Assembly (NCBI RefSeq): GCF_004010195.1
Contig: NC_057757.1
Coordinates: 2,123,940-2,187,939 of the forward strand
DNA length: 64,000 bases
Reading direction: 5' to 3'
From: Chiloscyllium plagiosum
Taxonomy: Eukaryota
Shown: positions 19,976 to 59,747 of the stretch, in pieces
Layout of the letters: every line of letters starts with the position of its first letter
How positions within the stretch are numbered: position 1 is the stretch's first letter
Position numbers and translations under genes: made by a program
The notes under the pieces: model-generated
Databases searched by the model: none
Told to the model about the DNA's origin: nothing
What the model saw: the letters and a program-made list of their open reading frames with translations, nothing else

Positions 19976-20114
19976 AAACTCCTGAGTATTCTATGTTTGA
20001 ATACTCAGGAGTTGGAGTTGCTAAGGATGATACAAGGTTCTGGAATTCTGTTCCCTGGGACTAAAGTCTCACATTTTGTTCCTGTCCATTGACAATATCC
20101 CAGCCTTTACTCAC

Positions 20115-20162
20115 CCTCTGATTGATAAGAGGTTGGTGCTAGGTGAATCAATGAGTTTCTTC
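20115..20162 (-). CDS. TNFSF13: TNFSF13-like exon 3: (R)RNSLIHLAPTSYQSE(G)
   Basis: ttccag| acceptor, G|GTGAGT donor, 48 nt, phase 1 to 1; aligns with APRIL QHSVLHLVP. Confidence 0.88.
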
Positions 20163-22336: not shown

Positions 22337-22499
22337 TTCTCTGCCTGTGCCTCAGTTTGCTCCCGGAGTCTCGTTCCACACGGAGAGTTTGTCGCTCTGG
22401 TTCCCTGTGGTGGAAATGGGCAGGATGCAGTGGGTCCCAGTGTGGAGTTGCGGGCAAGGTGTTGCTAGGTGACCTCTTGTTACCCAGTGCAGGGGAGAC
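22337..22499 (-). CDS. TNFSF13: TNFSF13-like exon 2 (stalk): VSPALGNKRSPSNTLPATPHWDPLHPAHFHHREPERQTLRVERDSGSKLRHRQR
   Basis: cccacag| acceptor, A|GTGAGC donor, 163 nt open in phase 0 to 1, bridging exons 1 and 3; ends in a basic, furin-type region. Confidence 0.78.
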
Positions 22500-23423
22500 C
22501 TGTGGGTAGAGCCAGGGTCAGAGGGTCATTCCAAAAGAGAAACGCAACTCAACAGACCGAGTTTGGGTCTCAATCTTTGGGAGAGTTAATCTGGAAAATG
22601 CCCAAATTGCACTGCCCCAAAGTGAGAAACTTCTCAAAATGCCACCTCTAATGACATTCCCTCCTCTTTCTGAGCCATTGATTAGTATCTGGGATTGTAC
22701 TTGGTCTAATCAGATCTTACCTCCAAGTCCCACTTTGACTGTAGTGTTAGCTGTGGCCTAGAGTATAGAACCTAAGCAGCAACGTTTTTAGTGCAGAGAC
22801 ATCATGGGACAAACTGCCAGAGGAAGTGGTGGAGGCTGGTACAAAGACAACATTTAAAAGACATTGGATGGGTACATCTATAGGAAGAGTAGAGAGCGAT
22901 ATGTACCAAATGCTAGCAAATGAGAATAGATTAATTTAGGATATCTGGTCAGTGTGGACCGAAGGGTCTGTTTCCATGCTATGAATCTTGCCTCTGACCT
23001 CAAGGTGTCTATGCCAGAGAACATATAATCCCAGCAGACATGCCCCAGTGTGGGAGTGAGCACTGAGGGAGAACCGCATTGTTGGTGATGTTTTTGTTTC
23101 CCATCCCAATTTGCCTCTTGAGCTGAGTGGCTCACTTGGCCATTTCAGAGAGCAGTTAAGAATCAGCTACACTGTTGGATGTCTGGAGTCACATGACGGC
23201 CAGACCAGCTAGGGATGGCAGATTTCCTTCCCCACAGGACATTAGTCAACCAGAAATTATTTATTTTACAAAAATGAACAAGTTTAATTGGGACTGTCAT
23301 TGAGACCAGCTTCCAATAGCAAATTTTATTACTAAAAAATTTCAGAGTGTCAGGATTTGAATCCAGGTTTGCACAGCATTAACCTGAGCCACTGGAGCCC
23401 AGTGATATTACCTTTCTCATTAT

Positions 23424-24945
23424 TTAAAAAATGTACTTTATTCATAAAAATATTTATATACGTACATAGTTGCTAAAGCAGTTAAGTTCTGTGCAGCAGC
23501 ATATGAAGAAACAACAAATATTGGTGTGATTCTATCCAAAAAATAAACTAAAGGCATTTATTATTGTACACAACTCTATTTACAAATATTTGAGGCATCA
23601 AGGTAACTGAACAGGCCCCCATTTAACTTGGCCAGAAAGACCCTCCAATGGTGGTTTTTGCTCACTGCATCTTGGTGGCAGCTGCCCCAAGTTTTAGTGT
23701 GCTCCTGTCATTGTCCTGGACCTTGGAAAGTGCCAGTCTGCAACACTCAGTCAGGGTCAACTCCTTGCTCCGGAAGACCAACACATTTCAGGCAGTCCAA
23801 ACAGCATCTTTCACCAAGGTGATGGTCTTCAAGGTGCAGTTGAAGTTTATCTCGGTGTTGGGGAACAAACGGTAGAACACAGAGTCCTGCATCACGGAGT
23901 TGCTCGGGACAATCCTCGACAGGAACCGCTGCATCTTCCTCCAGGCTTCCTTTACAAAGGCACATTCCAGAAGGAGATGTGTGACAGTCTTTCCACCCTC
24001 TCAGTTGCTGCAAGGGCAGCGTGTGGTGACACACAGAGTCTGGACATATATAGAGGATCTCACAGCTACTGGTCTTCTCACCACCAGCCAAGTGATAGCT
24101 TGGTGCTTGTTGGAAAGTACTGGCTATAAGGCATCTGCCAAATGACTTTGACAGCCTGCTCAGGGAACACCCCAACAGGGTCCACCCTCTCCTTTTCCAG
24201 CCGGGTCTCGAGGATGCTTTGTGCTGACTACATCCTGCCGGACTTGTGGTTAAAGGTGTTTTTCTTTATAAACTTCTCTATGAAGGACAGGTGTGAGGCC
24301 AGTCCAATCCTTTGCAACACTAGGGACAGGTAGAACCTCGGTATGTAGTGAAATTTGGTATTTGAGTACTAAAGGTCTACGCAGAGCTTGATTAGATTAG
24401 ATTCCCTAAAGTATGAAAACAGGCCATTTGGCCCAACAAGTCTTCACTGACCCTCCGAAGAGTAACACACCCAGACCCATTCCCTTACATTTACCCCTAA
24501 CTAATGCACCTAACACTGTTGGCAATTTAGCATGGCCAATTCACTTGACCCGCACATCTTTGGATTGTGGGAGGAAACCGGAGAACCTGGAGGAAACCCA
24601 CGCAGACATGGGGAGAATTTGCAAACTCCACATAGACAGTCACCCGAGGCAGGAATTGAACCCGGGTCCCTGGCACTGTGAGGCAGCAGTGCTAGCCACT
24701 GAGTCACCGTGCCACCCCGTGATTAGCCCCACACACACAAAGGTGGCAATCAGGATGAGGGTGATGTTGGGTACGTTCTTTCCCCCTTTAGCCAGAACTT
24801 TGCACATGGTGTCCCTGCAGACACTGTCCATCTTAAACCTTTAGATGAAGTGGAAATGGGTGTGACTCCAATGGGGAATAGGCCAGACAACAACAGAGAA
24901 GTGCCTCACCCAGTGACATTACTGGTATATCACTAATCCCTTGTG
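23424..24945 (-). mobile_element. Tx1/L1-like LINE 3' fragment interrupted by an HE1-like SINE (24390-24718, -)
   Basis: Minus-strand ORF2 C-terminal zinc-knuckle remnant (TVTHLLLECAFVKEAW); AATAAA near 23436-23441; SINE flanked by TGATTAG repeats. Confidence 0.65.
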
Positions 24946-26415
24946 AACATACAGAATCTTTTCTTGAATGCTGCTTGCAAGTTAACTACACAGGCCCTTC
25001 ACCCTTGTCCAGTTGGCTTGGCTTCAGCAGTTACTGTTTTCGGGAATTTCTATTGAGAAATCAGCAATTAGCAGCATTTTTCTGGTTAGTGAGAGCATGG
25101 GGGAGACAGAAAACCATTGGCACTAGCTTGACTATTCCATAACCTCAGATTTCAAAGATCAAATCCCAGATCCCTGCAACAGAATAGGGTAGGACGTTCT
25201 GGAAACACACCAAGAGTCTGTCAATGCCTGCCAAAAGAAACTAAGGGCAAGTCAGAGATGAATTAGAAAAAATGATTTCTCTTTCGTTACTGGCTTCAAG
25301 GATTTTCAATGGATGTTTCAGATTTAGACTTAGACGTTATTGTCATGTGTACTCAAGTACATAGGATTACAGTGAAAAGTTTTTCATATTGCCCCACACG
25401 ATGCCATCTGAAGGTCTAGCACCTTGGTACAAACACTTAAGAACAAGGTAAAAAGAAAGAACTTAAAAGTTAAACATTACAGTCATTTAGTATAGCATTA
25501 AAAAGTTAAACATTACAGTCCTAGTCAAAAAACAAAGATTTTAAGCTAAAAGGTCAAACATGTTGTTGATGGAATGCTATAATTATATACTGTACATGTC
25601 AAAATGTCAAGCCATTGCTCCTAAATTGCTCTCCATTTCCCATCAGAAGTACAGTTAAAGGGTAAGTTGCTGTGACAAACAGGGACAAAAAACCTGCAGC
25701 GAGTCCTGTTAACACTTCCCTCGCTGTATTTGCTGACTGGCATTGGTTCTTGGTCCAGCAACACTCCCATTTGAATATTCTCTTCCTTTGTTCTCCAATC
25801 CATCTATGGCCTCGCCTCCTCCCTTTCTCTACAACCTCCTTCAACCCCTCAAGCCTCTACACCCCTCCAATCCTGGCATTGAGCACCCCACCCCCAATTT
25901 TCCTCTCTCTACCATTGGCTGGCCTTCTCTTTGGTTGTCTGGGACCTTACACTCTGCAGTTACCTCCCTAAAACTCTTAATCTCTCCCTTTTCTCTCTTG
26001 CTTTCTCTCTCCCCTCCTTTAAGACCTACATCTTACAAAGCATTTAATCACCTCTCCTGATCTCCTTGTGTGGCGCCTGTCAGAAGCACTTTGAAACGTT
26101 TTGTTATGCTAAAGATGCTATACAGCTGCAGGTTGTTGTTGAATTATTAATTCTTGTTATAATTCTTAATTTTACAAAATCCTGAACATCTGATCAAAAT
26201 TGTAGAGTGATAGCGCACAAGAGGCCATTCAGCCCACTGCATCTGTTTTGAAACTATCCAATTAATTTTATGCCCCTCTGCTCTTTCCTCAACAGTCCTA
26301 CATATAATAATGCCCTCCTTTTGCGTATATATACACCCCATTTCCCTTTGAGGGTTACTGCTGATTCTTTCAGGAATGACATTGCTGTACATTGGGCAGC
26401 TTTCTCCTGGATTAG

Positions 26416-34610: not shown

Positions 34611-34769
34611 ATCCAGTGACCTGCCGTCGCCCTGGTCACCGCACTCCGCCCTTAGCCCCTCCAGCTCCCTCCTGAGCCTCGCCACTTCGGCTGACTGCAG
34701 GAGCTGCGTGGCCAGGCACAGCAAGACTCCGGCCAGAGCAGCGAGCCCCAAGGAGACCGGCGAAACCAT
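34611..34769 (-). CDS. TNFSF13: TNFSF13-like exon 1: MVSPVSLGLAALAGVLLCLATQLLQSAEVARLRRELEGLRAECGDQGDGRSLD
   Basis: ATG at 34769 with an in-frame upstream stop; hydrophobic anchor followed by EVARLRREL (APRIL: ELQSLRREV); GAT|GTGAGT donor in phase 0. Confidence 0.85.
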
Positions 34770-34854
34770 CTGCTTCCCACTCCTCTGCAGGCGGCCGAGC
34801 GAAGTGAGAGCAGGGACCAAGCCGCTGGCAGAGCAGCTGGATTCTGGCCCAAAG

Positions 34855-35015
34855 TGGGAGGGAAACTTTCACTAAGCCAGGTCCTAGTTTCACGAATTGC
34901 TGAACAGGCAGCCTAAAACAATCAAATAACACACATACACACGGCGCATAGCATTATAATCCAGGTTAAACCCTTGATTTGTTTTTACATTGCAGCTGCA
35001 AATTCTGATTGGTTG
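34855..35015 (-). promoter_or_regulatory. Candidate proximal promoter of the APRIL-like gene
   Basis: CCAATCAG on - (ATTGG at 35008-35012), TATA-like ATTATAAT (~34953-34960), kB-like GGGAAACTTTC (34860-34870); motif evidence only. Confidence 0.35.
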
Positions 35016-35267
35016 ACAGAGCGAAAACTGGGATTAAGGAGACAGGCAACAGCAGCTCAGGTGCAGATCTGGCAAAGCTGAGAGGGAGCTGGAAGTGTTA
35101 ACACCGATCAGACGAGAAGGCTGACAAAGATTCCCCCGTCCCCACCCAAGCCCACAGGGCCCAGCCTGACTCAATCTGTACACGGGGCAAGTGGCGAGAA
35201 CATCATCGGTTCAGGGACCCAGAGACTGGGCGAACGTTCAGCTCAGGGCTGGGACACGGGTCCAAAC

Positions 35268-35957
35268 CATAGACCCCCTCGCAGTGTGGAAGCAGGCCAT
35301 TCGACCCATCGAGTTCACTCCGACCGCCCGAAGAACATCCCGCCTCTCGCGTCACCTTGTATTTCCCACGGCTAACCCACCCAGCCTGCACATCCCTGGC
35401 CACTGTGGGTTAATATCCCATGGGCAAACCACTTAGCCTGCACGTCGCTGGACACTACAGAGCAATTTGGGGGTCTAGATTAGAGTGGTGCTGGAAAGGC
35501 ACAGCAGGTCAGGCAGCATCCAAGAGCAATTTACCGTGTCTAATCCACCACCTACACATCCCTGGATAATATGGGTAATTTGCTGTGGCTAATCCACCCG
35601 AACCTGCACATCCTTGGATACTATGGACAATTTACCATGGCTAATCCACCTAGCCTGCACATCCCTGGAAAATACAGGGTAATTTACCATGGCTAATCCA
35701 CCTAGCTGGTACACCCCGGGATACTCTGGGGCAATTTACCATGGCAAATCCACCTAACCTACGCATCCCTTGATACTACAGGCTATTTACCATGGCTAAT
35801 CCACCTAACCTGCACATCTTTGGACTGTGGGAGGAGACTGGAGTACCTGGAGGAAACCCATGCAGATATAGGGAGAACGTGCAAACTCCACACAGACAGT
35901 CGGACAAAGGTGGAATTGAACCCTGGTTCCTGGTGCCATGTGCTAACAACTGAGGCA
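35268..35957 (-). mobile_element. HE1-like SINE with an internal tandem expansion of about 50-55 bp
   Basis: About 7-8 copies of ctaatccacctagcctgcacatccctgga...caatttaccatgg between about 35370 and 35815. Confidence 0.75.
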
Positions 35958-37055
35958 CCTTGTAGATGCTGGAATTTAAATTCAATTTTAAAAAGAAAAG
36001 TCTGTAATTGGAAGGTAGTCCTAGCGATTGTGGCCATGAGACTATTGTCAGAAAAATCCATCTGGTTTTGCTAATGGGAAGGTTTGGCCATCTTTACCTG
36101 GTCTGGTCTACACGTGACTCCCAGACCCACAGTGATGCAGGTGACAGTCACCCGTCCTGTCTGACAAGCCGCATCCCCGCTACACTTGTTTTTCTGTCCG
36201 CAGCACACCTGACTCTTGACTGTTCTCTGAAACAGCCGAGCACATTGCAATTCCCAAATATCTTCCCATCGTGGCCCTGGTTTGGTGCTTGAAATTTGCT
36301 GAGAACCCAGAACCCTGTGGGGGATCTGAGTGGGGGTATCCCAGTGTATGCAGGGCTGGGGATGGAGATGACAACCCTCCCTATTCATGTACTTATCCAA
36401 ATGTCTTTGAAATGTTGTAATGTGCCTGCATCCATCACTTCCTCAGGAAGTTCATTCCACACACAGACCACCCTTGTGTAAATATTTTGCCCTCCATGTC
36501 ATTTCTAAATCTCTCTCCTCTCACCTTAAAAATATGCCCCCTAGTCTTGAAATACCCCACCCGAGGGGGAAAAACACCTACCATTAACTCTATCCATGCC
36601 TCTCATGATTTTGTAAACCTCTATAACATCACCTCTCAATCTCCTACATTCCAGTGAAAAAAGTCTCTGCCTATCCAGCCTTTCTTTATAATTCAAACTT
36701 TCATTCCCAGCGACACCCTGGTAAATTTCTTCTGAACCCTCTCCAGCTTAATAATATCCTTCCTATAACAGGGCAACCAGAACTGGACACAGTGCTCCAG
36801 AAGGGGCCTCACCAACGTCCTGTACAACTTCAACATGACGTCCCAACTCCTGTACTCAAAAGGTCTGAGCAATGAAGACAAGCTTGCTAAATGCCTTCTT
36901 AACCACTCTGTCTATATGTGAGGCAAATACATATGTGTACCTCTAAGTCCCTCTGTTCTACAACCCTACCCAAGACCCTACCATTAATTGTATAAGTCAT
37001 GCCCATGTTTATTGCCTCAAAATACATTACTTTGCATTTATCCAGATTGAACTCA

Positions 37056-37279
37056 GAAAGTGAGGACTGCAGATGCTGGAGATCAGAGTCGAGAGTGTGG
37101 TGCTAGAAAAACACAGCGGGTCAGGCAGCATCCGAGGAGCAGGAAAATCAACGTTTCGGCAGCAGTCCTTCATCAGGAATTTGAAATTCCTGATGAAGGG
37201 CTTATGCCCGAAACGTCGATTCTCCTGCTGCTCAGATGCTGCCTAACATGCTGTGCTTTTCCAGCACCACACTCTCAAC
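37056..37279. mobile_element. 224-bp palindromic PLE-derived element with a hammerhead motif on each strand
   Basis: 15-bp TSD TCCAGATTGAACTCA at 37041-37055 and 37280-37294; arms of about 96 bp centred on G37183. Confidence 0.85.
37186..37222 (+). ncRNA. Minimal type-I hammerhead ribozyme motif
   Basis: CTGATGA at 37190-37196, extra A, stem II GGGC/GCCC with TTAT loop, GAAA at 37210-37213, GTC triplet at 37215-37217; stem I weak, stem III minimal. Confidence 0.6.
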
Positions 37280-38544
37280 TCCAGATTGAACTCAATCTGC
37301 TGTACCTTTTCCAGTCTTCCCTGCGCCCTGGACATAAAACAGATTATCCTTTAGTCAGTACCACCAAACTCATCCCTGCCTGCAGAGAAATTGTCCAGTT
37401 GGAAGATCGGGCCCTGACTGAGACCTACAGCAAGACCCAAAGGCAAGTCTGAGGCTTCCGCACCCTTTAGAAGTCAGCTTATCCAACACTCTGATTTCCT
37501 TGTACCCTCAATCCAGCTAAGCTCCACTCAGCCTTCACCGCATAGTTCGACTCTTCCAGCCACCCACTACTGACCTATGTAAACTCCCAGAATCCTAAAT
37601 CCTTCGATTCAAAGATACTCATCGTCCTATTTCAATCCATCTATTAGTTACTCTACCCTCCCTCAGTCCCACACCCATAGTCCTCCCCTCCCTGAGATCT
37701 CTGCCCTCTTCCAATTCTGGCCTCTTGCTCATCATAGGTTTCTGTCTCACTACAATTGGTGGCCGTACACTCGGCTGCCTAAGCCTCAAGCCATGGAATG
37801 ACCCCTTTTAACCCTTTCTCTGTCTCTTTATCACTTTTCTCCATTCGGACACTTCGGACTCCTTGACCAAAGCCTCGTGATGTCACTTAATACTGTGTTA
37901 TGTCTGAGGACTCTCCTGTGAGGTCCCTTTTGGGAGCTTTTAACACATGAAAGGTGATGTATAAATGCAGGATGTTGTTGCAAGGTCATGATCTCTAACT
38001 CAACTTTAAGCTGTCACTTCTTGTTTGCATGGCCCTCTCTAAACATCACGACTTAAACCTTTCTTAACCTTCCTCCTGACCCCTGCCAAATAACAAAAAC
38101 GTGCACACTATAGAGTTCCATCCAATATCGTTTCTTTCAAATGCAAGCAAAGCAATTTTTTTAAGAAGTAACAATAACTGATGTCTGGTAACTAATAAGT
38201 GGAAAAAAGTTATTACTAAACAAGTTCCTTAAGTTCAAATTGTGTTCCAACCTGGGAACATCCTGAGAGCAAAATACCAGAGACATCAAATGTAACAGCT
38301 GAAAGCGAAGGCTGCGGTGTCGGAAACCCAGCCACCAGTTGTTGCACCGCAAGATCCCAAAACATGGTAAACACAGGATTATTTGTTTTCATGATGTTGG
38401 GGTATGAATGTTGGCCTGGAAATGACAGCTAGCAACTCTCCCCAGTCTTCTCTAAAACAGTGAGGGGGTGTCAGAGGCTCTGTTTAACATCTCTTGACTA
38501 TGCTGCATATCTTCAGTGTTTCACTGAATTCTCTTTATTTGCAC

Positions 38545-39745
38545 TCATAGAGTCATACTACATGGAAACAGATCCCAACGTCCAACTCATCCATACCGAC
38601 CAAGTTTTCCAAACTAAACTACTCCCACTTCCCTGCATATCCCTCTAAACGTTTCTTATTCATGTACCTGTCCAAATGTCTTTTAAATGTTGGAACTGTA
38701 TCTGCATCTACCAAAGATTTCCAACAGATTTGTCAGGCACAAACTCTCCTTGACAAATCTGCGCTGACTTAGTCCTATTTTCCCATGCACTTTCAAGTAC
38801 TTTGCAATCTCATCCTTAACAATCATAGAATTCCTACAGTATGGAAACAGGCCAATTGGCCCAACAAGTCCACACCAACACTACTAAGAATAACCCACCC
38901 AGACCCATGTCCCTACTCTATTGCTCAAATTTCCCCTGACTAATGCACCTAACCTACACATCCGTGAACACTGGACAATTTTGAATGGCCAATCCACCCT
39001 AACCTCCATATCTTTTGACTGTGGGAGGAAACCCACGCAGACATGGGGAGAATGTGCAAACTTCACACAGGGTGGAATCGAACTCAGGTCCCTGGCACTA
39101 TGTGGCAGCAGTGCAAGTCACCGTGTCACCCATGGAGTCTAATAATGGACTCTAAAATCTTACCAACAACTGAAGTCCGGCTAACTGGCCTAGTTTCTTG
39201 TCTTCTGCCTCCCTCCCTTCTTAAGCAGGGGTGTTAGATTATTCATTTTCCACTGAGATCAAAGCAGATCTGGACAGGAAAGCCTTAGGGACAGACTCCC
39301 TCAAATTATCATACAGTCATAGAGTTGTGCAACATAGAAACAAACCCTTGGGTCTTAACTCATCCATGCCAACCCACTATCCTAAATTAATCAAGTCCCA
39401 TTTGGTAGCATTTGGCCCATATTCTTCTAAACGCTTCCTAATCATGTACCCATCCAGATCCCTTTTAAATGTTGTAATTGTACCAGCTCCCACTACTCCC
39501 TCTGTCCATACACACATCACCCTCTGTGTGAAAAACTTGTCTGTTAAATCCCTTTTAAATCTTTCCCCTGTCACCTTAAACCTATATCCTCTAGTTCTGG
39601 ACTCTACTACCCTACCAAAGATTTCTAACAGCTTTGTCAGGCATAACCTCCCCTTGATGAAACTGTGTGACTCAGTCCTATTTTCCCATGCATTTTCAAG
39701 TACTCTGCAATCTCATCCTTAATAATGGACTCTAAACTCTTACCC
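38545..39745 (-). mobile_element. Mosaic of CR1 fragments and an HE1-like SINE (38824-39132)
   Basis: Antisense CR1 tails, two related RT fragments, and a SINE head at about 39070-39130. Confidence 0.65.
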
Positions 39746-39767
39746 ATAGCCTATTCACTCCATCTAT

Positions 39768-40400
39768 TCAAGGTTTGTGCGAAGATTTGTAGCTCGGGTG
39801 CTCGTTGTTGTGGTTCTGTTCACCGAGCTGGGAATTTGTGTTGCAGACGTTTCGTCCCCTGTCTAGGTGACATCCTCAGTGCTTGGGAGCCTCCTGTGAA
39901 GTGCTTCTGTGATGTTTCCTCTGCCATTTGTAGTGGTTTGTATCTGCCACTTCCGGTTGTCAGTTCCAGCTGTCCGCTGCAGTGGTCGGTATATTGGGTC
40001 CAGGTCGATGTGCTTGTTGCTTGAATCAGTGGATGAGTGCCATGTCTCTAGGAATTCCCTGGCTGTTCTCTGTGTGGCTACTAAGGATAGCTGAGTTTGA
40101 CTGGGAGAACACTACTATTATAGGACAAGCCAAACAGAGAACAGCCAGGGAATTCCTAGAGGCATGGCACTCATCCACAGATTCAATCAATAAGCACATC
40201 GACCTGGACCCAATATACCGACCACTGCAGCGGACAGCTGGAACTCATAACCGGAAGCGGCAGATTCAAACCACTACAAATAGCGGAGGAAACATTACAG
40301 AAGCAATCCACAGGAGGCTCCCAAGCAGTGAGAATGTCACCCAGACAGGGGACAAAACGTCTGCAACACATTCCCAGCTTGGCGAACAGAACCACAACAA
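39768..40400. mobile_element. 633-bp palindromic Penelope-like 3'-end insertion
   Basis: 12-bp TSD CACTCCATCTAT at 39756-39767 and 40401-40412; arms at about 39805-40079 and 40128-40400; endonuclease C-terminus FDWENTTIIGQAKQRTAREFLEAWHS on +. Confidence 0.88.
39843..39882 (-). ncRNA. Minimal type-I hammerhead ribozyme motif with an intact core
   Basis: Minus strand reads gca CTGAGGA t GTCACC tagaca GGGGAC GAAAC GTC tgc; 3-bp stem I (GCA/TGC). Confidence 0.65.
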
Positions 40401-41019
40401 CACTCCATCTATGCCCCCCATGATTTCATAAACCTCTATAAGGTCACCCCTCAGCCTCTGACACTCCAGGGAAAACAGCCCCAGCCTGTTCAGCCTCTGC
40501 CTCTAACTAAAACCCTCCAACCCTCTTTGTAAATCTTTTCTGAACCCTTTCAAGTTTCACAACTTTGTTATAGCAGGGAGACCAGAAGTGAATGCAGTAT
40601 TCTGAAAGCTGCAACATGACATCCTAACCGCTATAATCTGCAGGAAAGAGGTTGAAGCCTTAGGGAGAATGTCGAAAAGTGTTTGTCCATTCATAGATTG
40701 TGCTGGCTTTCTTGGCAATTATTGCCAAATGCCCTTGATGGTAAGCTGGTGAGTCTTTGGAATATATGATTACCTACTATTCCCTAAGGAGGGAATTCCA
40801 GGATTTTAGACCACAGAACATTACAGCACAATACAGGCCCTTCAGCCCTCAATGTTGTGCCAACCTGTGAAACCGATCTTAAAGCCCATTTAAACTACAT
40901 TATTCCATTATCATCCATATGTTTTACCCAATGACCATTTATGACCCTGGGAAAGTAATGGAACATTGATATAATTCCAAATCAGGAGTGTGTGTGACTT
41001 AGAAGTAATGTTCTCATGT

Positions 41020-41475
41020 GTGTTGCCAGGACTGAAGGGTTTGAGTTATAAGGAGAGGCTGGATAGGCTGGGACTTTTTTCACTGGAGCATTGGATGCTG
41101 GGAGGTGACTTTATAGAGGTTTATAAAACCTTGAGGGCCACTGATAAGATGAATAGCCAGCGTCCTTTTGCAGCAATGAGGTATCCAAAATTACAGGGCA
41201 TAGGTTTAAGGTCAGAGGAAAAGATTTTAAAAGGACCTACGGTGGCAATGTTTTCACGTGGAGGGTGGTGCAAGTTTGGAATGAGCTGCCAGACAAAGTG
41301 GTAGAGCCGGGTACAATTACAGCATTTAAAAAGACATTTGGGCAGCTCCAGGGATAGGAAAGGTTTAGAAGGATATGGGCCAAATGCAGACAAATGGGAC
41401 CAGTTCGGTTTGGGATACCTGGTCGACATGGACAGTTTGGGCCAAAGGGTCTGTTTCTGTGCTCTGACTCTATCT
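41020..41475 (+). mobile_element. CR1 3' fragment
   Basis: LPGLKGLSYKERLDRLGLFSLE and CR1 tail. Confidence 0.75.
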
Positions 41476-42120
41476 CCTACTGCCTTTGTCCTTTTGGGTT
41501 GTGCTGCAATGGGATTGTTTGCAGTTGAGCCTGGGTTGCAATTGAGCTCATGTTGGCTTAGCTGTTGCATTTATTTCCAGTCTATTAGACACACCCTTAC
41601 TCAGAATAGGTGTTACCCTTCAAATTCTTGTTGCTGTCAGGGTTTATACAATGAAGAATGTATTTGAAGGGTTGTGCTATCAGTGGAGCCATCTGTATAC
41701 TGCAAGTTACCATGATTTCCACATCAGCAGTGTGATGATGACCCAGATCTTCTGGGAGTTTTAGGGTGTTGATTGAGAGATAAATATTATCCCAGGACAT
41801 TGGGGAAAAGGGCCCAGTTACATTTCTTGGAAATAGTGGTCATGGGATCATTACCATCCACCTCAGTCTAATACCTCTTCTAACTCTAGCACCTCTGACT
41901 GTCCCCCAGAAGCACAGGCTGATAGGAACGGGAAATTGTAAGAGGAGAGAAAGACATTTCAGTTACAACATCTATCATTAGGTCTCTCATTGATGCAAAT
42001 CAATCTAAGTCAGTACAACTTTGGTAAGAGTGGAAAATTGACAATGAGAATGCAGCTGTGAATTTGCAAAAATGTGAGTAAGAAGCAGGAGTGGGCTACG
42101 CAGCCCCTCAGGACCTCTCT

Positions 42121-42725
42121 CTGCCTCACAGTGCCGGAGACCTGGCTTCGGTTCCACGTGGAGTTTGCACGTTTGATTAGATTAGATTAATTATAGTGTG
42201 GAAACAGGCCTTTCGGCCCAACAAATCCACACCGACCCTCCGCTGAGCAGCCCACCCATACTCATTCCCCTATATTTACCCCTTCACCTAACACTACGGG
42301 CAATTTAGCATGGCCAATTCACCTAACTTGCACATTTTTGGACTGTGAGAGGAAACCCACGCCGACACTGGGAGAACGTGCAGACTCCACACAGACAGTT
42401 GCCTGAGGCGGGAATTGAACCCGGTCTCTGGCGCTGAGAGGCAGCAGTGCTAACCACTGTGCCACCGCGCCGCCCACACGTTCTCCCCGTGTTTGCATAG
42501 CTTTCCTCCCGTTTCCTCCCACAGTCCAAAGATGTACTGGTTAGGGAGGATTGGCCGTGCTAAATTATCCCGTGGTGTCTAGGGATGTGCTGGCTGGGTG
42601 GATTCGCCATGGGAAATGTAGGGTTACTGGGATGGGAGAATATGGGGGGGTTGTGGGATGCTATTCGGCGGGTTGGTGCAGACTTGATGGGTTGAATGGC
42701 TTCTTTCTGTATTGTAAGGATTCCA
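42121..42725. mobile_element. HE1-like SINE (-, 42174-42476) nested inside an HE1-like SINE (+)
   Basis: CACGTT repeated at 42168-42173 and 42477-42482; (GATTA)n tail. Confidence 0.75.
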
Positions 42726-44484
42726 CGAATTGCACTGGGAGCATCAGCGCAGATATCATTCTCAGGTCTGTGGGCACATAGTGACTTAGAACTCGCTCTT
42801 GGACACCAGTACCCACCTCCTCACCTAATCAGTATTGAAATTGATGGCACAGGAGGACATTCTGCCCACCATGCCCTGTGTTAGCCCTTCGAGCTTTCCA
42901 ATTAGTGCAACTCATCCCACCCTTTCCCCATAGAATCCTGCAATTTTTCACCCCCTCAAATATTTATCTAATCCCTTTCTGAAAGTTCCCACTGAATCTG
43001 CTTCCACCGCCCTTTCAGGCAGTGTGTTCCAGATCACAATTACTCAATGTGTGAAAAAAAATCTCATTTCCTCTGCCCATTCTTTTACCAAAGACATTAA
43101 ATTGGTCCCTCTGTGGTTACCAAGTAGCTGAGAACCATTTCTCCTTATTTTACTCCATCAAAACTTTGCAAGATTTTGACAACCTTGCTTCAATCCTTTT
43201 TTTTAATATTAACAATCGCAAAAATCGCTGGAAAGGCTCAGCGGGTCTGGCAGCATCTGTGGAGAGAAATCAAAGTTAACATTTCAGGTTCAATGACCCT
43301 TCTTCATTGCTCAAAGCAGAACAATCTCAGATCCCCCAGTCTCTCCACGTAACCGATGTTGTTTGAGTAAATCCCTCTCTAACACAATGGGACACCTTGC
43401 CGAACTTTCCCCCCACCCCTCCAAAGATGACACACAGGGCTCAATCCAGAATAAAAAATAATGTATTGAAATACAATAATACCGACAAAGGCCTTTTTCA
43501 TAGCAGCAACATTACAAAGCTTCGCTTGAGAGCTGACATCTCCTTGAATGAAAGTTAGGGGATGGTGCTTCAAATCAAATCACAGTTAGATACAGTTCAA
43601 CCCAAATTCACAGTTTTTGAAGTAACGACAACATCTTTGGATGGAAACGTTCACCCGGACGTGTTCCTGAACAGAGATCACACAATCTCCACCCTCTCAC
43701 CATTGACAGCGGGAAGGTGATGGGTGACCAGTCAGAAAGCAGAGATCCCTCTCTCCACCTCTCAGACTTTAAGATTGTCCACTTCTCCCCCAGCCAGTTT
43801 CCTGGGCTTTATTTATGAGGACAGAGAGCTCTTGCCGAACTTGTGCAGGTCTACCTAGAGGTGGGGGGGGCGGGGTGTCCAGATCTGGTTGCCATGCTTT
43901 AGGAAGGAGGTGTAGGTATTGGGGGGGAAAAAAGAGAGCAGGAGACGTTGTAGAGTTAGCTCTGCTGCTGGGTACATGGTCCCTGTCTTTACATGTACAC
44001 TGCAGCCCCCCCCCCACTGACATCTCCCAACACCTTGGTAATTTTGGTTGTGTCCAGTTTCTCAGATGATGAGCAACTGCACCCTAACGAAGTGCAAATT
44101 CAGACAGAGAACCATGCACTAGCCCCCCCCCGACAAAAGGGATGTGCCGCAGAAAAATCATTCCTGTTAACACTTTACATTACTAAATGACAATTCACGT
44201 TTGGTTAAATATACATACACACTATAAATCAAAACTAACACCCCCAAATCATGAGATGCTGAGGCTGTGGAGGGACGAGTGAAAATGACTTCTTGTTGGT
44301 TACGGGATCAACAGGTGAAGATAGAAATCAGCCACGATCCTCCAGGAAGGATGGAACAGGCTCGATGGGCTGAATGAAATGCAAAGAGGCAGTATTTAGG
44401 ACATTATCAGCCAGCCACACGCAGGCACAGGTTCAGATATTGCTGGCTCGGCAACCATTCATAGAATGGAGCATCGAATCCATA

Positions 44485-44778
44485 TCGTGGGAGCAGGCCA
44501 TTTGACCTATTGAATCCACACCAACCATCTGTAGAGCATCCCATTCCTGTAACCCTGCATTTCCCATGGCTAACTCACCTAGCCCGCACATCCTTGGACA
44601 TTATGGACAATTTAGCATGGCCAGTCCACCTAACCTTCACATCTTTAGACTGTAGGAGGAAACCAGAGCACCCAGAGGAAATCCAAAGGGAGAAGGTGCA
44701 AACTCCACACAGGCATTGGAATCTCCCGAGATTGGAATTGAACCTGGATCCTTGGCACTGTGAGGCAGCGGTACCAGC
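44485..44778 (-). mobile_element. HE1-like SINE
   Basis: Reverse-complement SINE body and head. Confidence 0.7.
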
Positions 44779-46084
44779 AGCTGAGTATCTCTTCAGATTT
44801 TGATTCACAGTTACTAAGGATCCTGTAACTCATTGAAAAACCTTCCAACATATTATTTGAAATCAAAGACAAATAAACCTTCCAGAATTTAGGTTAGCAG
44901 ATTAGATGCAGTCAATAACCAGCGACTGAGAATATCAAATGAATCTAAGCGGGAGATTCAGCAGAACGCTCTCCACTTACAGAGCGGTGGCAATGCAGAA
45001 CTCACAAACTCAGTTCAGGAAAGCACTTGCCTACAATTGTTCTTGTCACTGCTCAATATCAAAATATCATCTTTGCAATCAAATCCCTCCTTGGTCCTCA
45101 TTCCCCTCCTTATCTCTAACTTCCTCCAGCCTTAAGATCCTCCAGATCTTAAATTTCCTCCAGTAGCAAATTGAAGAGCCACGGAGAGCGGGCAGGAAAG
45201 GTGGAGCTGAGGGAGAGATTAAATCAGTAATATTGGTATTAAATGGCCCAATCTAGCTGCGGGTACTTATGTTCCACAACCATCCAGGATCTCTGTGCTC
45301 CTCCAAATCCAGCATTCCCCGATTCCCATCTCTGCACCATCCTTTGTGTGAATGGAATGAGCTGCCAGACGAAGTGGTGGAGGCTGGTACAATTGCAACG
45401 TTTAAAGGGCATCTGGATGGGTAATTGAATAGGAAGGGTTTGGAGGGATATGGGCCAAGTGCTGGAAAACGGGATTAGCATGATTTAGGATATCTGGTCA
45501 GCACGGATGAATTGGATTAAAGAGTCTGTTTCCATGCTGTACAGCTCCTTGACTCTAAGGTGCTGAGCAGGACATGCTAGAACTGAGAGTCTGGTTAAAG
45601 TTTGAGTTTCGCAACAGGTATTTCATGTCATTTGACCTCTGCTTTCTCATTCCCATCGTTTCCATTGTCCACTTTTTAAGTGTGAGGATAGTGGCTTTCT
45701 GATTTTCGTGTTACACCAGAGTTTCTCAACTGAAATTTGTCTTAATTTCATTTGAGAGCCTGCACTTATATAGCGCCTTTTCATGTAGAGAGACACCCAT
45801 GTGTTTAAATCAAATGAGCACATCCAGCCAGAGATCAGGGAGAGACGATCGAAAGTTAGATCAAAGAGACTGGAAGGGGAGAGGTTCAGGTAGGGGAATT
45901 CCACAGCCTCACGCTCGGGTAGATGAAGGCACAGCCACCAATGGTGGAGCAAGGAAATCGGGGGATGCTGGAAATGGAGGAGCACAGAGATCCTGGACTG
46001 TTGTGGAATGTAAGTGCTTGCAGCTAGATTAGGCCATTTAATACCATCGTGGCTGATTTAATCTCAGCCTCAATCTACCTTAGG

Positions 46085-47695
46085 TCCCCTCTTTCTCCTC
46101 TCATCATCAACCTATGCCCTTTAGATTTGGACTCCCCTACCCTGGAGAAAAGATCTTGTCTATTTACTCTATCCATGCCCCTCATGATTTTATAAACCTC
46201 TCTAAGTCACCCCTCAGTTTCTGACGCTCCAGGGAAAACAGCCCCAAGCCTGTTCAGCCTCTCCCTGTAGCTCAAACCCTCCAATCCTGGCAACATCCTT
46301 CTCAATCTTTTCTGAAGCCTTTCAAGTTTCACAACATCTTTCCAATAGCACAGAGACCAGAATTGTATGTAGTATTCCAAAAGTGGTCTCCTTCCTATTG
46401 GAAGGATGTTGCAAAACTTGAAAAGGGTTCAGAAAATATGTACATGGATGTTGTCAGGGTTGGAGGGTTTTAGCTATAGGGAGACGCTAAATAGGCTGGG
46501 GCTGCTTTCCCGGAGCGGCAGAGGCTGAGGGGTGATCTTAGAGGTTTATAAAATCATGAAGGGCATAGATAGGATAAATAGACAAGTCTTTCCCCTGGGG
46601 TGGGGGAATCCAGAACTAGAGGGCATATGTTTCGGGAGAGGGGAGGAAGGGACCTGAGGGGCAACTTTTTCACACAAAGGGTTGTGTATGTATGGAATGA
46701 GCTGCCAGAGGAAGTGGTGGAGGATGGTACAATGACAATGTTTAAAAGGCATCTGGATGGGGATATGAATAGGAAGAGTTTAGAGGGATATTAGCTAAAT
46801 GCTGGCAAATGGGATGAGATTAGGTTAGGATATCTGGTCAGCATGGAGGAGTTAGAGCAAAGGGTCTGTTTTCGTGCTGTACATCTCTATGATTCTATAA
46901 TGTCCTGTACAGCTGCAATATGACATTCCAACCCCTATATTCAATGCACTGACCAACAAAGGCAAGCCTACCAAACACTTCCTTCACCACCCTGTCTCCC
47001 CATGACTTCACTTTCAAGGAACTAAGAACTTGCAATCAAAAGGTCTCTGTTCAGCAAAACACCCCAAGAGCTACCATTAAGTGTATTCGACCCACTTTTC
47101 TGCCTTTCCAAAATGCAACACCTCACATTTATCTAAATTAAACTCCATCTGGCATCCCTTGGCCCATTGACTCATTTGATTAAGATGCCGTTGTATTCTG
47201 AGGTAACTTTCTTCACTGTCCACTACATCACCAATTTTAGTGTCATCTGCAAACTTACTCACTATACCTCCAATATTCACATCCAAATCACTTATACAAA
47301 TGTCGAAAAGCAGTGGACCCAACACCGATCCTTGTGACATATGCCTGGTCACAGGCCTTCAGTCCGAAAAACAACCCTCCACCTCCACCCTCTGGTCTTC
47401 TACCTTCGAACCAGTTCTATATCCAAGTGGCTGGGTCTCCCTGTATTCCTTGTGATCCAACCTTGCTAACTAGTGTACCATGAGGAACCTTGTCAAACCT
47501 CTTACTGAAGTCTGTATAGACAACATTCATCTCTGCCTTCATCAATCTTCTTTGTTACTTCCTCAAGAAAACTCAACCAAGTTCATGAGACACGATTTCC
47601 CACATTGACTATCCCTAATCAGTTCTTACCCTTCCAAATACATGTAAATCCTGTCCCTCGGAATTCCCTCCAACAACTTACCCAGCCCTGATGTC
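46085..47695 (-). mobile_element. CR1 RT/3' fragment with a nested opposite-strand CR1 3' copy (about 46390-46900)
   Basis: [10 protein letters not shown]...SKFADDTKIG on -; RGNFFTQRVVYVWNELP on +. Confidence 0.8.
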
Positions 47696-49731
47696 TTTGG
47701 CTGTGCAGTGCTCCATCCAGCCCTCCCTGAATCTTTAAGAGCTATTGTTTTCCTTCTAATCCTCTACTTCCCTCTCTGCAGCTTGACAGAGATCATTTCA
47801 GAATCCGCCCAGTGATTTAAGCCAACAAAAATGTTTGCAGCTCACTGAATTCCTGCACGCCCAGTATCGCTTGCCTCTTTTTCCAATACCTGTTATTCTC
47901 CGTTACCCCCCTCACCCCTGCCATGCCTCTTCCAACTCTAAAAGACCAATTTTTAAGTAGATTTGTTATTGTGATGTGGGTAGAACATTGCTGCCCCTTC
48001 CCTAGCTGCCCCTTTGAAAAGGTGGGAGTCAGCTGCCTTCTTGAACCGCTGCAGTCCTGCATGGTGCAGAGACCCCCACACAGTGTCGTGAGAGAGGGAG
48101 CTCCAGGATTCTGACCCAGCGACACTGAGGGAACCGCCGATATATTTCCAAGTCAGGATGGGGAGTGGCTCAGAGGGGAACTTGAAGGTTTGAAGGTGCT
48201 GTCAGAGAAACCCTGGTGAATTTCTGTAGTGCATCTTATAGATGGTACGCATTGCTACTCCTAAGCGTCGGTGGAGGAGGGAGGGGATGTTTGTGGATGT
48301 GGTGCCAATCAACCAGGAGCTGCTTTGTCCTGGGATGGTGTCGTGCTTCTAGAATGTTGTTGGAGCTGCCCCCATCCAGGGCAAGTGGAGAGTATTCCCT
48401 CACACTCCTTGTCAATGGTGGGACAGGCTTTGGGGAGGAGTCAGGATGGAGTGATTTGTCCAATGCCCTGATCGGGTCTGACCTCGCCCTCCCCAAAAAC
48501 AACGGGCTGTTTTGGCAACAACATTCACCGTTGTGCTTTTGTTAATCTTCAAGTTCCTTTATCCCTAAAGGTGCCATTTCCTTCCTGAGCTGCCAATCCA
48601 TCAGAAACCTCCAATCTGAAACCTGCCAATTTAACTATTTAACTGCAACGGGTCTCTCAGTAGCTCCAATGTTCCCCCCCATCACACTGGAGGGTCACAG
48701 TTACAGAGCTGCCACTGGGGTCAGTGAACACAGGAGAGATGACGGACTGAAATTGGCCTTTACCTATAATTCCAGCAATCTCAATTTTGAAGGCACTTGG
48801 GAACAGGAGCAGTGCAAACGATTCTCCACTCGCAGTACAGGATGCAGGCTACCCCAACCGAAAACCAGAAAGGGAACTGACTGAGTCAGGAAGCTGGGAT
48901 AAAAAAAAACCCATGAGGAGACAGTAACAGCAATGACGAGGGAAAATAGTGAATCACTGCAACCTACAGAAGGCCACTTGGCCCATCATAATACTCCAGC
49001 TCTTTAAAAGAGCTTCCTCACTTTGCCTTTCAATCTGTGACCCTGTTGGAATTATTTGTGGGATCATCCTTTATCCCTTTCCCAGGTGGAGATTGTCAAC
49101 TCTCTCCGAACGGAAAACCCTTCCCGTAACTCCCTCCCTACCAATTTCAAATCTCCGGTCTCTGGTTATCAATCCTGTCAGCAGAGGTCACTTGGGGGAG
49201 AAATGGGAAATGAAAGAGAGAAGCTCTGGGAAGAACACAACAGGTAATGTCTCAAAGACTTACACAATGCATACATCTTAACTTTCAATAGTGCTTTTTG
49301 CTCTCCCATTCCAACTGAGACCTTGGAGGTATTCCTGGATACTTGAACAGGTGACCTTTGCCCCCTGACCCCTGATACTTAATATAGCCAAGGGCCTGAC
49401 CCTGCCACCTGCCAACCAATCATGAAACAGACAAAAACAAGTCTCCCGCGTTCTTACAAGAAGGAAAATTGTTTGAAGAAACTCAAATTGGAGATTAGAA
49501 ACAGATTGGAAAAGCCTCTCCAGACTGACACCCCACACTTTCACTCTTGTGACATTTTGCGGCCATGGATCCTGGTACTGTCCTGTTGGCCGCAGCCTTG
49601 CAACCCTCAGGCAGCCAGCTATTCGACTGAATGGGGCACCACAGCCAAATCCTCCCCACTGCCCTACACGCACACGCAGCCAGGGTCCTCGTCCCATATC
49701 GGGGAAGAATCATGTTGGATATTAACCCCAT

Positions 49732-49769
<38 letters not shown>

Positions 49770-50092
49770 GAGCCTGTTGAGTTTCTCTGGCACTTTCTTT
49801 TCGTGTCGCTGTCCAGAGAGTGAGCTCGAAAGTCAGGGAAAAGAGCTAATCTCGGACGACGGGAGGGGCAAATCGCAGAACCCTCTGGGTGTTTTCTCGC
49901 GCCAAGTGGTCTGCCGTTGTCAGGATTGCAGGTGGATCTAGTCAAAAGGAAGAAAAGGTACAAGAAAAGTCTGTCTCTCTCCCTCCCTCTCTTTGACACA
50001 GCGGTCTCTCAGTTTAAGAAGGCCAGGCTGTATGTAGTAGTCTCCCCACACACTTGCGCACACAGACACGCGGACACAGACATGGTCCCCTT

Positions 50093-50338
50093 TTACAGCT
50101 TGAAGAGCCCGAAGTGAGTGAAGGTTTTGGGTTTCAGGTGCACCCCGGCGATGCTGTAAACACTGATCTGGGACTTCTTCCGGAGCCGAACTAATCCAGA
50201 CGCTTGGCAAGAATGCACAGCCAGTTGCTGGCTGTAGGTAGGGGTCGGCGGTAATCCCTGAACACACCGAAAAGTCAATTCTTTGTCCACCATCACGTCC
50301 AGCTTTAAGTAGGCTGTGGTGTTGTCATCGCAATGAAC
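50093..50338 (-). CDS. TNFSF12: TNFSF12 (TWEAK) last coding exon: VHCDDNTTAYLKLDVMVDKELTFRCVQ...CQASGLVRLR...THFGLFKL*
   Basis: ctgcag| acceptor in phase 0, TAA at 50095-50093; aligns with human TWEAK VHFDEGKAVYLKLDLLVDGVLALRCL...CQVSGLLALR...TYFGLFQV. Confidence 0.93.
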   Translation of the reverse strand, partial: VHCDDNTTAYLKLDVMVDKELTFRCVQGLPPTPTYSQQLAVHSCQASGLVRLRKKSQISVYSIAGVHLKPKTFTHFGLFKL

Positions 50339-50427
50339 CTGCAGATACATCGAGAGAGAGGTTTGTCAGTTCCACTGACATTCAGGAAAGGAGAACAGAA
50401 ATGTTCAAGCCTTCAATAGCTCACTCG

Positions 50428-50460
<33 letters not shown>

Positions 50461-50864
50461 CCCCCCCCACACCCCCCATACCGGGCGGCACAGTCCCTTC
50501 ATCTCCCTATCCCTCTCTCTATCCCCATCTCTTCCCTTCCCGACCCCCCATTTATCTCTCTCTTCCCCCCCCCCCAATCCCTCTATCCCCCGTTCCCATT
50601 CTTCAGAATGGAGGCAGAGATTATGGGTGTGAGTCCCACTCCTGACAATGAAATATCAACCTTAGCAGATGCACTAAGTGGGTGTGGGTGGGGGGAATGG
50701 TGGTGGTAGACTTTTGGAATTTCCAGCCCAACAGGGCCCTCAGTATACTTAAGACAGACAGCACTAGCCTTCTACATGTTAAAGATATCAAGGGATAGTG
50801 CGGAAAAATGGTGTTGAAGAAGATCAACCGTCATCTGACCGTACAACAATGCCTGCACCCTCAG

Positions 50865-51385
50865 CAACAATCCTCCCACAGTGCCCGCTCCCTCAATACT
50901 GACCCTCCAACAATAGCCACTCAGTCAGTGCTGACCCTCTGACAGCGCCCGCTCCCACAGCGCTGACTCTCCGACACTGCAGCGCTCCCTCAGCACTGAC
51001 CATCCAACACTGTGATGCTCCCTCAGTGCTGACCCTCCAACACTACGAAGCTCCCTCAGCACTGACCCTCTGCCAGTGTAGCGCTCCCATAGTGCTGACC
51101 TTCCGACAGTGCCTGCTCCCTCAGCACTGACCCTCTGCCAGTGTAGCACTCCCATAGTGCTGACCTTCCGACAGTGCCTGCTCCCTCAGCACCGACTCTC
51201 TGCCAGTGCAGCATTCCCTCAGCGCTGACCCTCCGCCAGTGTGTTGCTCTCTCAGCACTGACCCCCCTGACAGTGCCTGCTCCGTCAGCACTGACTCTCC
51301 GACAGCACCTGCTTCCTCAGCATTGACCCTCCTACAGTGTGGCGCTCCCTCAGCGCTGACCCTCCAACAGTGCCCACTCCCACAG
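50865..51385. repeat. Tandem repeat of about 31-33 bp (cagtgc..gctccctcagcactgaccctccga)n in the TWEAK last intron
   Basis: About 15 diverged units visible. Confidence 0.85.
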
Positions 51386-51495
51386 ACAGTGAGGTTTAAA
51401 CCTGTTTGACCAGTACTTAAAACGAAAATATTTTTTGGACAATGTTCAGCTGGAAAGGTGGGGTGGGGTGGGGGTGGAGGGGAGAGGTGTCTTGC

Positions 51496-51617
51496 CTGAC
51501 TGTATATGTAGTAGACTCCCTCCCGGTGTACGGTGAATCTGGCCGTCTTGTTGTTGTAGGTCACTGCACTTTTGGTCGTCTCAAGTGGGCATTCTAACCA
51601 CTGCCTGATGATCCCAC
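51496..51617 (-). CDS. TNFSF12: TNFSF12 penultimate exon: GGIIRQWLECPLETTKSAVTYNNKTARFTVHREGVYYIYSQ
   Basis: aaacag| acceptor in phase 1, 122 nt, ends CAG|GCAAGA (GC donor); aligns with human YNRQIGEFIVTRAGLYYLYCQ. Confidence 0.9.
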
Positions 51618-59714: not shown

Positions 59715-59747
59715 GTCTCTCACACACTGACTCTCACTGGGGTACAA

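What the first reader, a model, noticed from the sequence alone, without database searches (positions are those of the whole stretch)
22337..51617. TWEAK-APRIL tandem with exon phases compatible with a shark TWE-PRIL fusion
Seen: both genes are on -, with about 15 kb from the TWEAK stop to the APRIL ATG. The TWEAK penultimate exon ends in phase 0 (..YIYSQ| at 51496) and APRIL exon 2 starts in phase 0 (|VSPALG at 22499), giving an open chimeric frame. Known: mammalian TWE-PRIL joins TWEAK exon 6 to APRIL exon 2. Inference: the capacity for this read-through may date to the jawed-vertebrate ancestor. Phase compatibility alone does not show that it is expressed.
Basis: partly seen in the sequence, partly recalled or inferred. 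Interest (0 to 1): 0.8.

Follow-up and report, generated by a model that had tools for sequence, protein, structure and literature searches.

The report
Shark TWEAK-APRIL tandem, fusion unproven
Two neighbouring immune-signal genes, TWEAK and APRIL, sit head-to-tail in this shark as in mammals and would give an in-frame fusion if spliced together, but that fit is likely a by-product of the gene family's shared exon layout, and no fused message turned up in the few RNA assemblies checked.

Summary
The anatomy is right. TWEAK and APRIL lie on the minus strand, 15,323 bp apart. Joining 51496 to 22499 gives an open 383-aa frame. My exon models equal the RefSeq proteins. The tandem in cartilaginous fish is already published (PMC11762692).

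The phase match says little. 13 of 25 TWEAK-donor/APRIL-acceptor pairs are in frame, and the same phase-0 intron sits in unlinked BAFF- and BALM-like paralogues.

RNA: of 3 contig sets covering APRIL exon 2, two join exon 1 to exon 2, one joins exon 4 back to exon 2 (a likely circular RNA), and none joins TWEAK. The TWEAK side was not examined in RNA. None of 41 shark or ray proteins has the TWE-PRIL junction.

One lead favours read-through: a catshark RefSeq model splices from inside TWEAK's last exon into APRIL exon 2, but out of frame.

Verdict: a known tandem, probably with some leaky read-through. A functional shark TWE-PRIL is not excluded (about 15%) but is not shown.

The parts
60763..60807 (-). 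TWEAK coding exon 3 (45 nt, phase 1 to 1). Exons 1 and 2 lie beyond the window, at extended window coordinates 89125-88898 and 65453-65315.
   Evidence: model equals P0001
59581..59622 (-). TWEAK coding exon 4 (42 nt, phase 1 to 1)
51496..51617 (-). TWEAK penultimate coding exon (exon 5; 122 nt, phase 1 to 0), ends YIYSQ, followed by a GC donor
   Evidence: RefSeq P0001 runs from YSQ into VHC; Pfam TNF
50093..50338 (-). TWEAK last coding exon (246 nt, phase 0, stop at 50093); holds a weak cryptic GT donor after 50268 (phase 2) at the place where the catshark model leaves TWEAK
34770..50092 (-). TWEAK 3' region and intergenic stretch, 15,323 bp. 0 of 24 ORFs of 100 aa or more had a Pfam match; first ATTAAA at 46062, first AATAAA at 43813
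34611..34769 (-). APRIL coding exon 1 (159 nt, ends phase 0); the hydrophobic segment starts at residue 1
   Evidence: exon 1 to exon 2 join in contigs of X2 and X15
22337..22499 (-). APRIL exon 2 (163 nt, phase 0 to 1); its acceptor is the one a TWE-PRIL splice would use
   Evidence: single match in the genome
20115..20162 (-). APRIL exon 3 (48 nt, phase 1 to 1)
   Evidence: exon 2 to exon 3 join in 3 of 3 contigs
18385..18497 (-). APRIL exon 4 (113 nt, phase 1 to 0), ends IYTQ at the position homologous to the TWEAK YSQ intron; its end is joined back to exon 2 in the X1 contig
17553..17694 (-). APRIL exon 5 (142 nt, phase 0 to 1)
12088..12197 (-). APRIL exon 6 (110 nt, with stop)
17989..23254 (.). 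Inverted repeat arms 17989-18061 and 23182-23254 (73 nt, 78% complementary) bracketing APRIL exons 2-4

Best explanation
This is the known TWEAK-APRIL tandem, two genes whose in-frame exon 5/exon 2 fit is likely a by-product of the exon layout shared across this branch of the TNF family, with at most probable low-level leaky read-through and no dedicated fusion protein shown. Shown: gene structures, phases, APRIL spliced from its own exon 1, and the same phase-0 intron in unlinked paralogues. Inferred: polymerase that occasionally runs past the TWEAK end reaches the APRIL exon 2 acceptor about 28 kb on. That acceptor follows a 12-kb intron and appears to take several donors (exon 1, exon 4 by back-splicing, a SINE-derived first exon in one RefSeq model, and a cryptic TWEAK donor in a catshark model). 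Such leak would give a mix of in-frame and out-of-frame messages, too rare to survive in assembled contigs.
For: 13 of 25 TWEAK-donor/APRIL-acceptor pairs are in frame. APRIL exon 4, the BAFF-like gene on C6 (also with a GC donor) and the BALM-like gene on C15 (acceptor side seen) have the same phase-0 intron. 0 of 3 contig sets covering exon 2 show a TWEAK junction; 2 of 3 show exon 1. 0 of 41 chondrichthyan proteins from 18 species carry the in-frame junction, although a 383-aa fusion lies inside the 150-478 aa range. The one shark model that enters APRIL exon 2 from TWEAK does so out of frame (59 of 59 codons fit the +1 frame; best unrelated offset 5). Penultimate-exon to second-exon splicing is the commonest pattern for neighbouring genes and was found in 8 of 10 random human pairs under 10 kb apart (PMC2953495, passages).
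Against: The RNA test is weak: contigs drop rare forms, only 4 of 24 listed runs were laid, the raw-read run gave 0 reads, tissues are unknown, and TWEAK expression in these runs was not examined. Human TWE-PRIL itself had only one supporting mRNA or EST in PMC2953495, so annotation can miss it. No AATAAA or ATTAAA lies in the first 4 kb after the TWEAK stop (2.7 expected, P about 0.06), and the competing donor is a GC. 5 of 96 unnamed predicted proteins have the TWE-PRIL layout, four of them not mammal-like by inspection.
Confidence: 0.68

Rival explanations
1. Sharks make a regulated, functional TWE-PRIL: read-through skips the TWEAK last exon and APRIL exon 1 and puts the APRIL receptor-binding domain on the TWEAK membrane anchor and 35-residue cytoplasmic tail, as in mammals. 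The fusion would then date to the jawed-vertebrate ancestor.
For: Same order, strand and phases as the human exon 6 to exon 2 junction (PMC6862657 table). Shark APRIL has no cytoplasmic tail in this species (hydrophobic segment from residue 1), so a fusion would add something. GC donor and no canonical poly(A) hexamer within 4 kb. The catshark model suggests that transcripts can cross the gap. TWE-PRIL-layout predictions exist that look non-mammalian.
Against: No junction in 3 of 3 contig sets or 41 proteins. The phases are generic, and the GC donor is shared with the BAFF-like gene, which has no such neighbour role known. A 29-kb intron must outcompete a 1.2-kb one. The predicted chimera keeps basic furin-like motifs at residues 115-121 and 244, so it may be cleaved.
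Confidence: 0.15
2. Read-through is real but regulatory rather than coding: it uses out-of-frame donors (such as the cryptic one after 50268), yields messages with an early stop that would be degraded, and may dampen APRIL or TWEAK output.
For: The catshark model P0013 ends in APRIL exons 2-3 read in the +1 frame, with a stop in exon 3. The matching cryptic GT exists here and is also out of frame (72 aa to the first stop).
Against: It rests on one gene model. The other catshark species' TWEAK model has a frameshifted last exon, so an indel in that exon may have pushed the predictor to a minor or invented intron. The cryptic donor scores poorly (1.3, against 2.4-8.9 for the ten donors of the final models bar TWEAK exon 2, which was not scored, recalled weight matrix).
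Confidence: 0.1
3. The downstream gene is not the APRIL orthologue but another TNFSF13-family paralogue, so the TWE-PRIL comparison would not apply.
For: Solved BAFF structures score slightly above APRIL (109 against 105 bits). In one tree the shark genes group with BAFF/BALM-like rows at 90/92, below the starred level.
Against: It is adjacent to TWEAK, the published hallmark of TNFSF13 (PMC11762692). BAFF-like (C6, C39) and BALM-like (C15) genes lie elsewhere in this genome. An APRIL clade is not rejected (AU p 0.53). NCBI names it TNFSF13 or TNFSF13-like.
Confidence: 0.05

Closest known systems
TWE-PRIL (TNFSF12-TNFSF13 read-through, human and mouse)
   Same: TWEAK directly upstream of APRIL on one strand; the penultimate TWEAK exon and APRIL exon 2 join in frame (human exon 6 to exon 2, PMC6862657 table); the predicted product has the TWEAK tail and membrane segment plus the APRIL TNF domain.
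   Different: No hybrid message or protein shown here. The gap is 15.3 kb and the chimeric intron 29 kb (the human gap is about 1 kb, recalled). Shark TWEAK has six coding exons and a GC donor at the junction exon.
Chondrichthyan TNFSF12/TNFSF13 tandem (Marin 2020, PMC7674686; Marin 2025, PMC11762692)
   Same: The same adjacent pair, reported in both bony and cartilaginous fish and argued to predate the vertebrate genome duplications (passages).
   Different: PMC11762692 does not mention TWE-PRIL or readthrough (0 occurrences in the main text). Exon phases did not appear in the passages seen from either paper.
Generic conjoined (read-through) transcripts (Prakash 2010, PMC2953495)
   Same: [quoted passage not shown]
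   Different: That study found no significant conservation of human junctions in fish or frog ESTs; sharks were not among the species named.
Exonic circular RNA made by back-splicing
   Same: A join of exon 4 back to exon 2 in one contig whose length (354) equals the 324-nt circle plus a 30-nt overlap; an inverted repeat brackets these exons.
   Different: One contig at depth 3.7, library type not on record, no test of circularity.

Membership tests
TWE-PRIL | TWEAK immediately upstream of APRIL on the same strand | tested here: met
   0 of 24 intervening ORFs match Pfam; 0 Rfam matches in the window
TWE-PRIL | Penultimate TWEAK exon and APRIL exon 2 join in frame | tested here: met
   383-aa open frame, junction after residue 192
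TWE-PRIL | A hybrid mRNA with that junction exists | tested here: inconclusive
   0 of 3 contig sets show it, and 1 raw-read run gave no reads; 0 of 41 chondrichthyan proteins. Contigs drop rare forms, and the TWEAK side was not examined in RNA.
TWE-PRIL | Fused protein at the cell surface with the APRIL receptor-binding domain | not testable with these tools
   Mammalian property taken from passages of PMC3396365 and PMC6262789
TWEAK (TNFSF12) | Type II membrane segment plus TNF domain closest to TWEAK | tested here: met
   Best solved relative is TWEAK 4ht1, E 3e-24, next 2e-8; hydrophobic segment 36-54; Pfam TNF above cut-off
APRIL (TNFSF13) | TNF domain of the BAFF/APRIL group | tested here: met
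   BAFF and APRIL chains at E 1e-29 to 1e-30, other TNF ligands 7e-7 or worse
APRIL (TNFSF13) | Groups with APRIL rather than BAFF or BALM in a tree | tested here: inconclusive
   Unstarred grouping with BAFF/BALM-like rows; APRIL clade not rejected, AU p 0.53; bony-vertebrate rows were unnamed predictions
APRIL (TNFSF13) | Adjacent to TWEAK, with BAFF and BALM elsewhere in the genome | tested here: met
   synteny criterion from PMC11762692. The BAFF and BALM labels for C6, C39 and C15 are my reading of the sequences.
Exonic circular RNA | Back-splice junction at annotated splice sites | tested here: met
   The X1 contig joins the end of exon 4 to the start of exon 2; one contig only
Exonic circular RNA | Covalently closed (RNase R resistant, divergent RT-PCR) | not testable with these tools
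   needs a bench test

The most novel reading that the evidence does not exclude
Sharks make an in-frame TWE-PRIL from a read-through transcript (51496 to 22499), giving their tail-less APRIL a membrane anchor and cytoplasmic tail. The fusion would be about 450 million years old and would help explain why the TWEAK-APRIL tandem has been kept.
Probability: 0.15. Interest if true: 0.65.

Novelty: already known. Interest (0 to 1): 0.3.

Why it matters
As it stands this is a published tandem of two annotated genes. If an in-frame fusion were shown in sharks, it would be one of the oldest conserved read-through proteins, would move membrane-bound APRIL signalling (including the reverse signalling reported in mouse neurons, PMC6262789) back to the origin of jawed vertebrates, and would offer a reason why the pair stays linked. 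The analysis makes that test cheap: one exact junction, two control junctions, and a measured baseline showing that phase fit alone is worth little. The likely APRIL exon 2-4 circle and the out-of-frame catshark model are small, testable extras.

Tried and rejected
No run was on record as an RNA holder ('no RNA holder listed'); 19 of 24 rows held the exon. The single-cell raw-read run X20 gave 0 reads on exon 2 from about 2% of the run: no test. The TWEAK side of the junction has no RNA data in this report.

The 507-aa Mustelus model P0033 (whole TWEAK, a 9-residue linker, whole APRIL) was rejected as evidence of TWE-PRIL: it keeps both skipped exons, and 8 of 96 representatives show similar merges that keep the TWEAK last exon, so predictors seem to merge this pair often. 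The alternative first exon of APRIL model P0036 was rejected as TWEAK-derived: its six residues match (up to one mismatch) eight SINE-like copies across the region, so it cannot be placed. A retrocopy of a fused message was not found: exon 2 has one match in the genome. The GC donor was rejected as a fusion-specific feature because the BAFF-like gene has it too.

Trees did not resolve APRIL against BAFF/BALM. The Atlas search with P0001 gave only CD40L and TWEAK clusters. Rfam gave 0 matches. Two look-ups of earlier findings were empty.

Literature: searches (listings and abstract starts) showed no report of TWE-PRIL outside mammals; one search showed no shark APRIL circular RNA; one search showed nothing on the GC donor. 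Pradet-Balade 2002 and Redmond 2022 are not held, so I could not see whether the latter mentions shark read-through. I did not open the supplements of the Marin papers, which hold the synteny detail.
Full report
Observation. The window is G000:C48:2123940-2187939. On the minus strand I rebuilt a six-exon APRIL-type gene (34769-34611, 22499-22337, 20162-20115, 18497-18385, 17694-17553, 12197-12088) and a six-coding-exon TWEAK gene, four exons inside the window (60807-60763, 59622-59581, 51617-51496, 50338-50093) and two beyond it. The models translate exactly to P0001 (273 aa, RefSeq TNFSF12 of Chiloscyllium plagiosum) and P0023 (244 aa, TNFSF13). The TWEAK stop and APRIL ATG are 15,323 bp apart. 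Joining 51496 to 22499 gives an open 383-aa frame.

Is the fit more than chance? No. Of all 25 TWEAK-donor/APRIL-acceptor pairs, 13 are in frame. The phase-0 intron after YxY(S/T)Q is a family feature. APRIL exon 4 ends there in phase 0. The unlinked BAFF-like gene on C6 has it, also with a GC donor. The BALM-like gene on C15 has the matching phase-0 acceptor. Both TWEAK and APRIL also end exon 1 in phase 0. So the phases follow from shared ancestry of exon layout, whether or not a fusion is made. The BAFF and BALM labels are my reading of the sequences.

Identity of the genes. TWEAK is clear: the best solved relative is TWEAK at E 3e-24. The downstream gene is in the BAFF/APRIL group, but similarity alone does not separate them (BAFF 109 bits, APRIL 105), and trees were unresolved (AU p 0.53 for an APRIL clade). 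Orthology rests on position next to TWEAK and on three other family members lying elsewhere in this genome. Marin 2025 states that TNFSF12 and TNFSF13 are adjacent in both osteichthyans and chondrichthyans (PMC11762692, passages); Marin 2020 discusses the tandem as very ancient (PMC7674686, passages). The tandem is therefore already known.

RNA evidence. 24 runs were listed for exon 2 and 19 held it. I laid 4 of the 24 on 22290-22640. Contigs of X2 (depth 24.8) and X15 (depth 133.5) cover exactly the exon, and their loose ends equal the end of exon 1 and the start of exon 3 (checked). The contig of X1 (depth 3.7) instead has the end of exon 4 in front of exon 2. X20, raw single-cell reads, gave none. 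So 0 of 3 informative sets show a TWEAK junction. This is weak: contigs drop rare forms, tissues are unknown, the runs are only guessed to be RNA or have no kind on record (the intron-free joins argue that they are RNA), and the TWEAK side was not examined, so it is open whether TWEAK is expressed in these runs.

Protein evidence. Three searches and three cluster look-ups gave 41 chondrichthyan TWEAK or APRIL proteins from 18 species. None has TWEAK YSQ followed by APRIL exon 2 (P0007, missed by the pattern, read by eye), though 383 aa lies inside the range searched. Two of the 41 do link the genes. Catshark P0013 (XP_038642829.1) leaves TWEAK inside its last exon and continues with a 58-residue tail. 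That tail plus its stop fits catshark APRIL exons 2-3 in the +1 frame at 59 of 59 codons. Among 9,955 control offsets, a second catshark APRIL sequence gave 59, three orthologous exon 2 starts gave 10, and the best unrelated offset gave 5. NCBI files catshark APRIL as isoform X2 of the same gene. This is a TWEAK-to-APRIL exon 2 splice in a shark gene model, but out of frame and with an early stop. I could not see its read support, and the other catshark species has a frameshifted TWEAK last exon in its model, which may have steered the predictor. Mustelus P0033 is whole TWEAK plus whole APRIL. A profile search of 1.84 billion representatives gave 96 hits; 13 of 96 carry both TWEAK and APRIL parts, 8 keeping the TWEAK last exon and 5 with the TWE-PRIL layout. 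These are unnamed predictions. By inspection one looks mammalian and four look sauropsid; none looks shark-like. They show that predictors often merge this pair, and they leave open a non-mammalian TWE-PRIL.

Mechanism. Most likely (0.68) the two genes work separately, and any read-through is leak. The APRIL exon 2 acceptor follows a 12-kb intron and is seen with exon 1 (contigs), exon 4 (one contig), a SINE-derived first exon (model P0036) and a cryptic TWEAK donor (catshark model), which suggests it accepts several donors. That step is inferred. Conjoined transcripts of this pattern are common: 8 of 10 random human pairs under 10 kb apart gave one (PMC2953495, passages). A functional shark TWE-PRIL (0.15) remains possible. 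For it: shark APRIL here has no cytoplasmic tail, no canonical poly(A) hexamer lies within 4 kb of the TWEAK stop (0 seen, 2.7 expected, P about 0.06), and human TWE-PRIL was itself supported by a single mRNA or EST in that survey. Against it: no junction seen, generic phases, a 29-kb intron, and furin-like motifs on both sides of the junction. A regulatory, out-of-frame read-through gets 0.10.

Comparison with TWE-PRIL. The human fusion joins exon 6 to exon 2 (PMC6862657, table row) and places the APRIL domain at the cell surface (PMC3396365, passage); mouse work ties it to reverse signalling in sympathetic neurons (PMC6262789, title, abstract start and passages). The shark locus meets the two structural criteria. 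The defining one, a hybrid message, is inconclusive. It should not be filed as TWE-PRIL.

Side result. The X1 contig is 354 nt. Exons 2-4 total 324 nt, and 324 plus a 30-nt overlap is what a closed circle would give with 31-letter words (my inference; only 30 letters of each loose end were shown). The circle has no stop and no Met in the coding frame. A 73-nt inverted repeat brackets these exons, and exon 2 has one match in the assembly. It is a likely circular RNA, from one low-depth contig; template switching is not excluded.

Papers seen. PMC11762692, PMC7674686, PMC6262789, PMC2953495, PMC6862657, PMC3396365, PMC6001812, PMC8517431 and PMC6764479 as passages; PMC5316386 as the first third of the text. 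Pradet-Balade 2002 and Redmond 2022 were not available. No supplements were read. Searches listed no report of TWE-PRIL outside mammals, which covers only the open library.

Verdict. Real, correctly described anatomy of a known tandem; the phase fit is uninformative; shark TWE-PRIL is neither shown nor excluded. Interest 0.3.

Noticed in passing
window 18385-22499 (-), contig of run X1: The end of APRIL exon 4 is joined back to the start of exon 2 in a 354-nt contig (324-nt circle plus 30). Likely a circular RNA with a stop-free, Met-free coding frame; an inverted repeat at 17989-18061 / 23182-23254 brackets it.
   Followed up: partly
window 51495-51494 (-) and L030:1440: TWEAK and the unlinked BAFF-like gene both use a GC donor at the homologous intron after YSQ, while APRIL has GT there.
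   Followed up: partly
L024 (G000:C39:16288246-16288665, -): An intronless BAFF-like gene in a 325-aa open frame, sister to the intron-containing BAFF-like gene on C6 (99/96); looks like an intact retrocopy.
   Followed up: partly
P0013, P0015, P0021 (catshark TWEAK models): Models from both Scyliorhinus species have aberrant C-termini. The S. torazame tail matches another frame of the TWEAK last exon, so the exon may carry a real or assembly indel.
   Followed up: partly
P0070, P0073, P0074, P0076: Unnamed predicted proteins with the TWE-PRIL layout that look sauropsid rather than mammalian; read support unknown.
   Followed up: no
window 7660-8292 (+): A 210-aa single open frame matching DUF4534 (E 1.5e-23; TMEM217-like, label recalled), convergent with APRIL.
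   Followed up: no
window 35300 and 52193 (-), among other copies: The alternative first exon of APRIL model P0036 matches the end of a SINE-like repeat; one copy lies 530 bp upstream of the APRIL ATG and one in TWEAK intron 4.
   Followed up: partly
window 31288-31604: Assembly gap inside APRIL intron 1; many more gaps lie beyond the window end.
   Followed up: no
window 5524-5974, 50835-51385, 59721-60731: Tandem repeat arrays (periods 28, about 33/65, and 34-250); the latter two lie in TWEAK introns.
   Followed up: no
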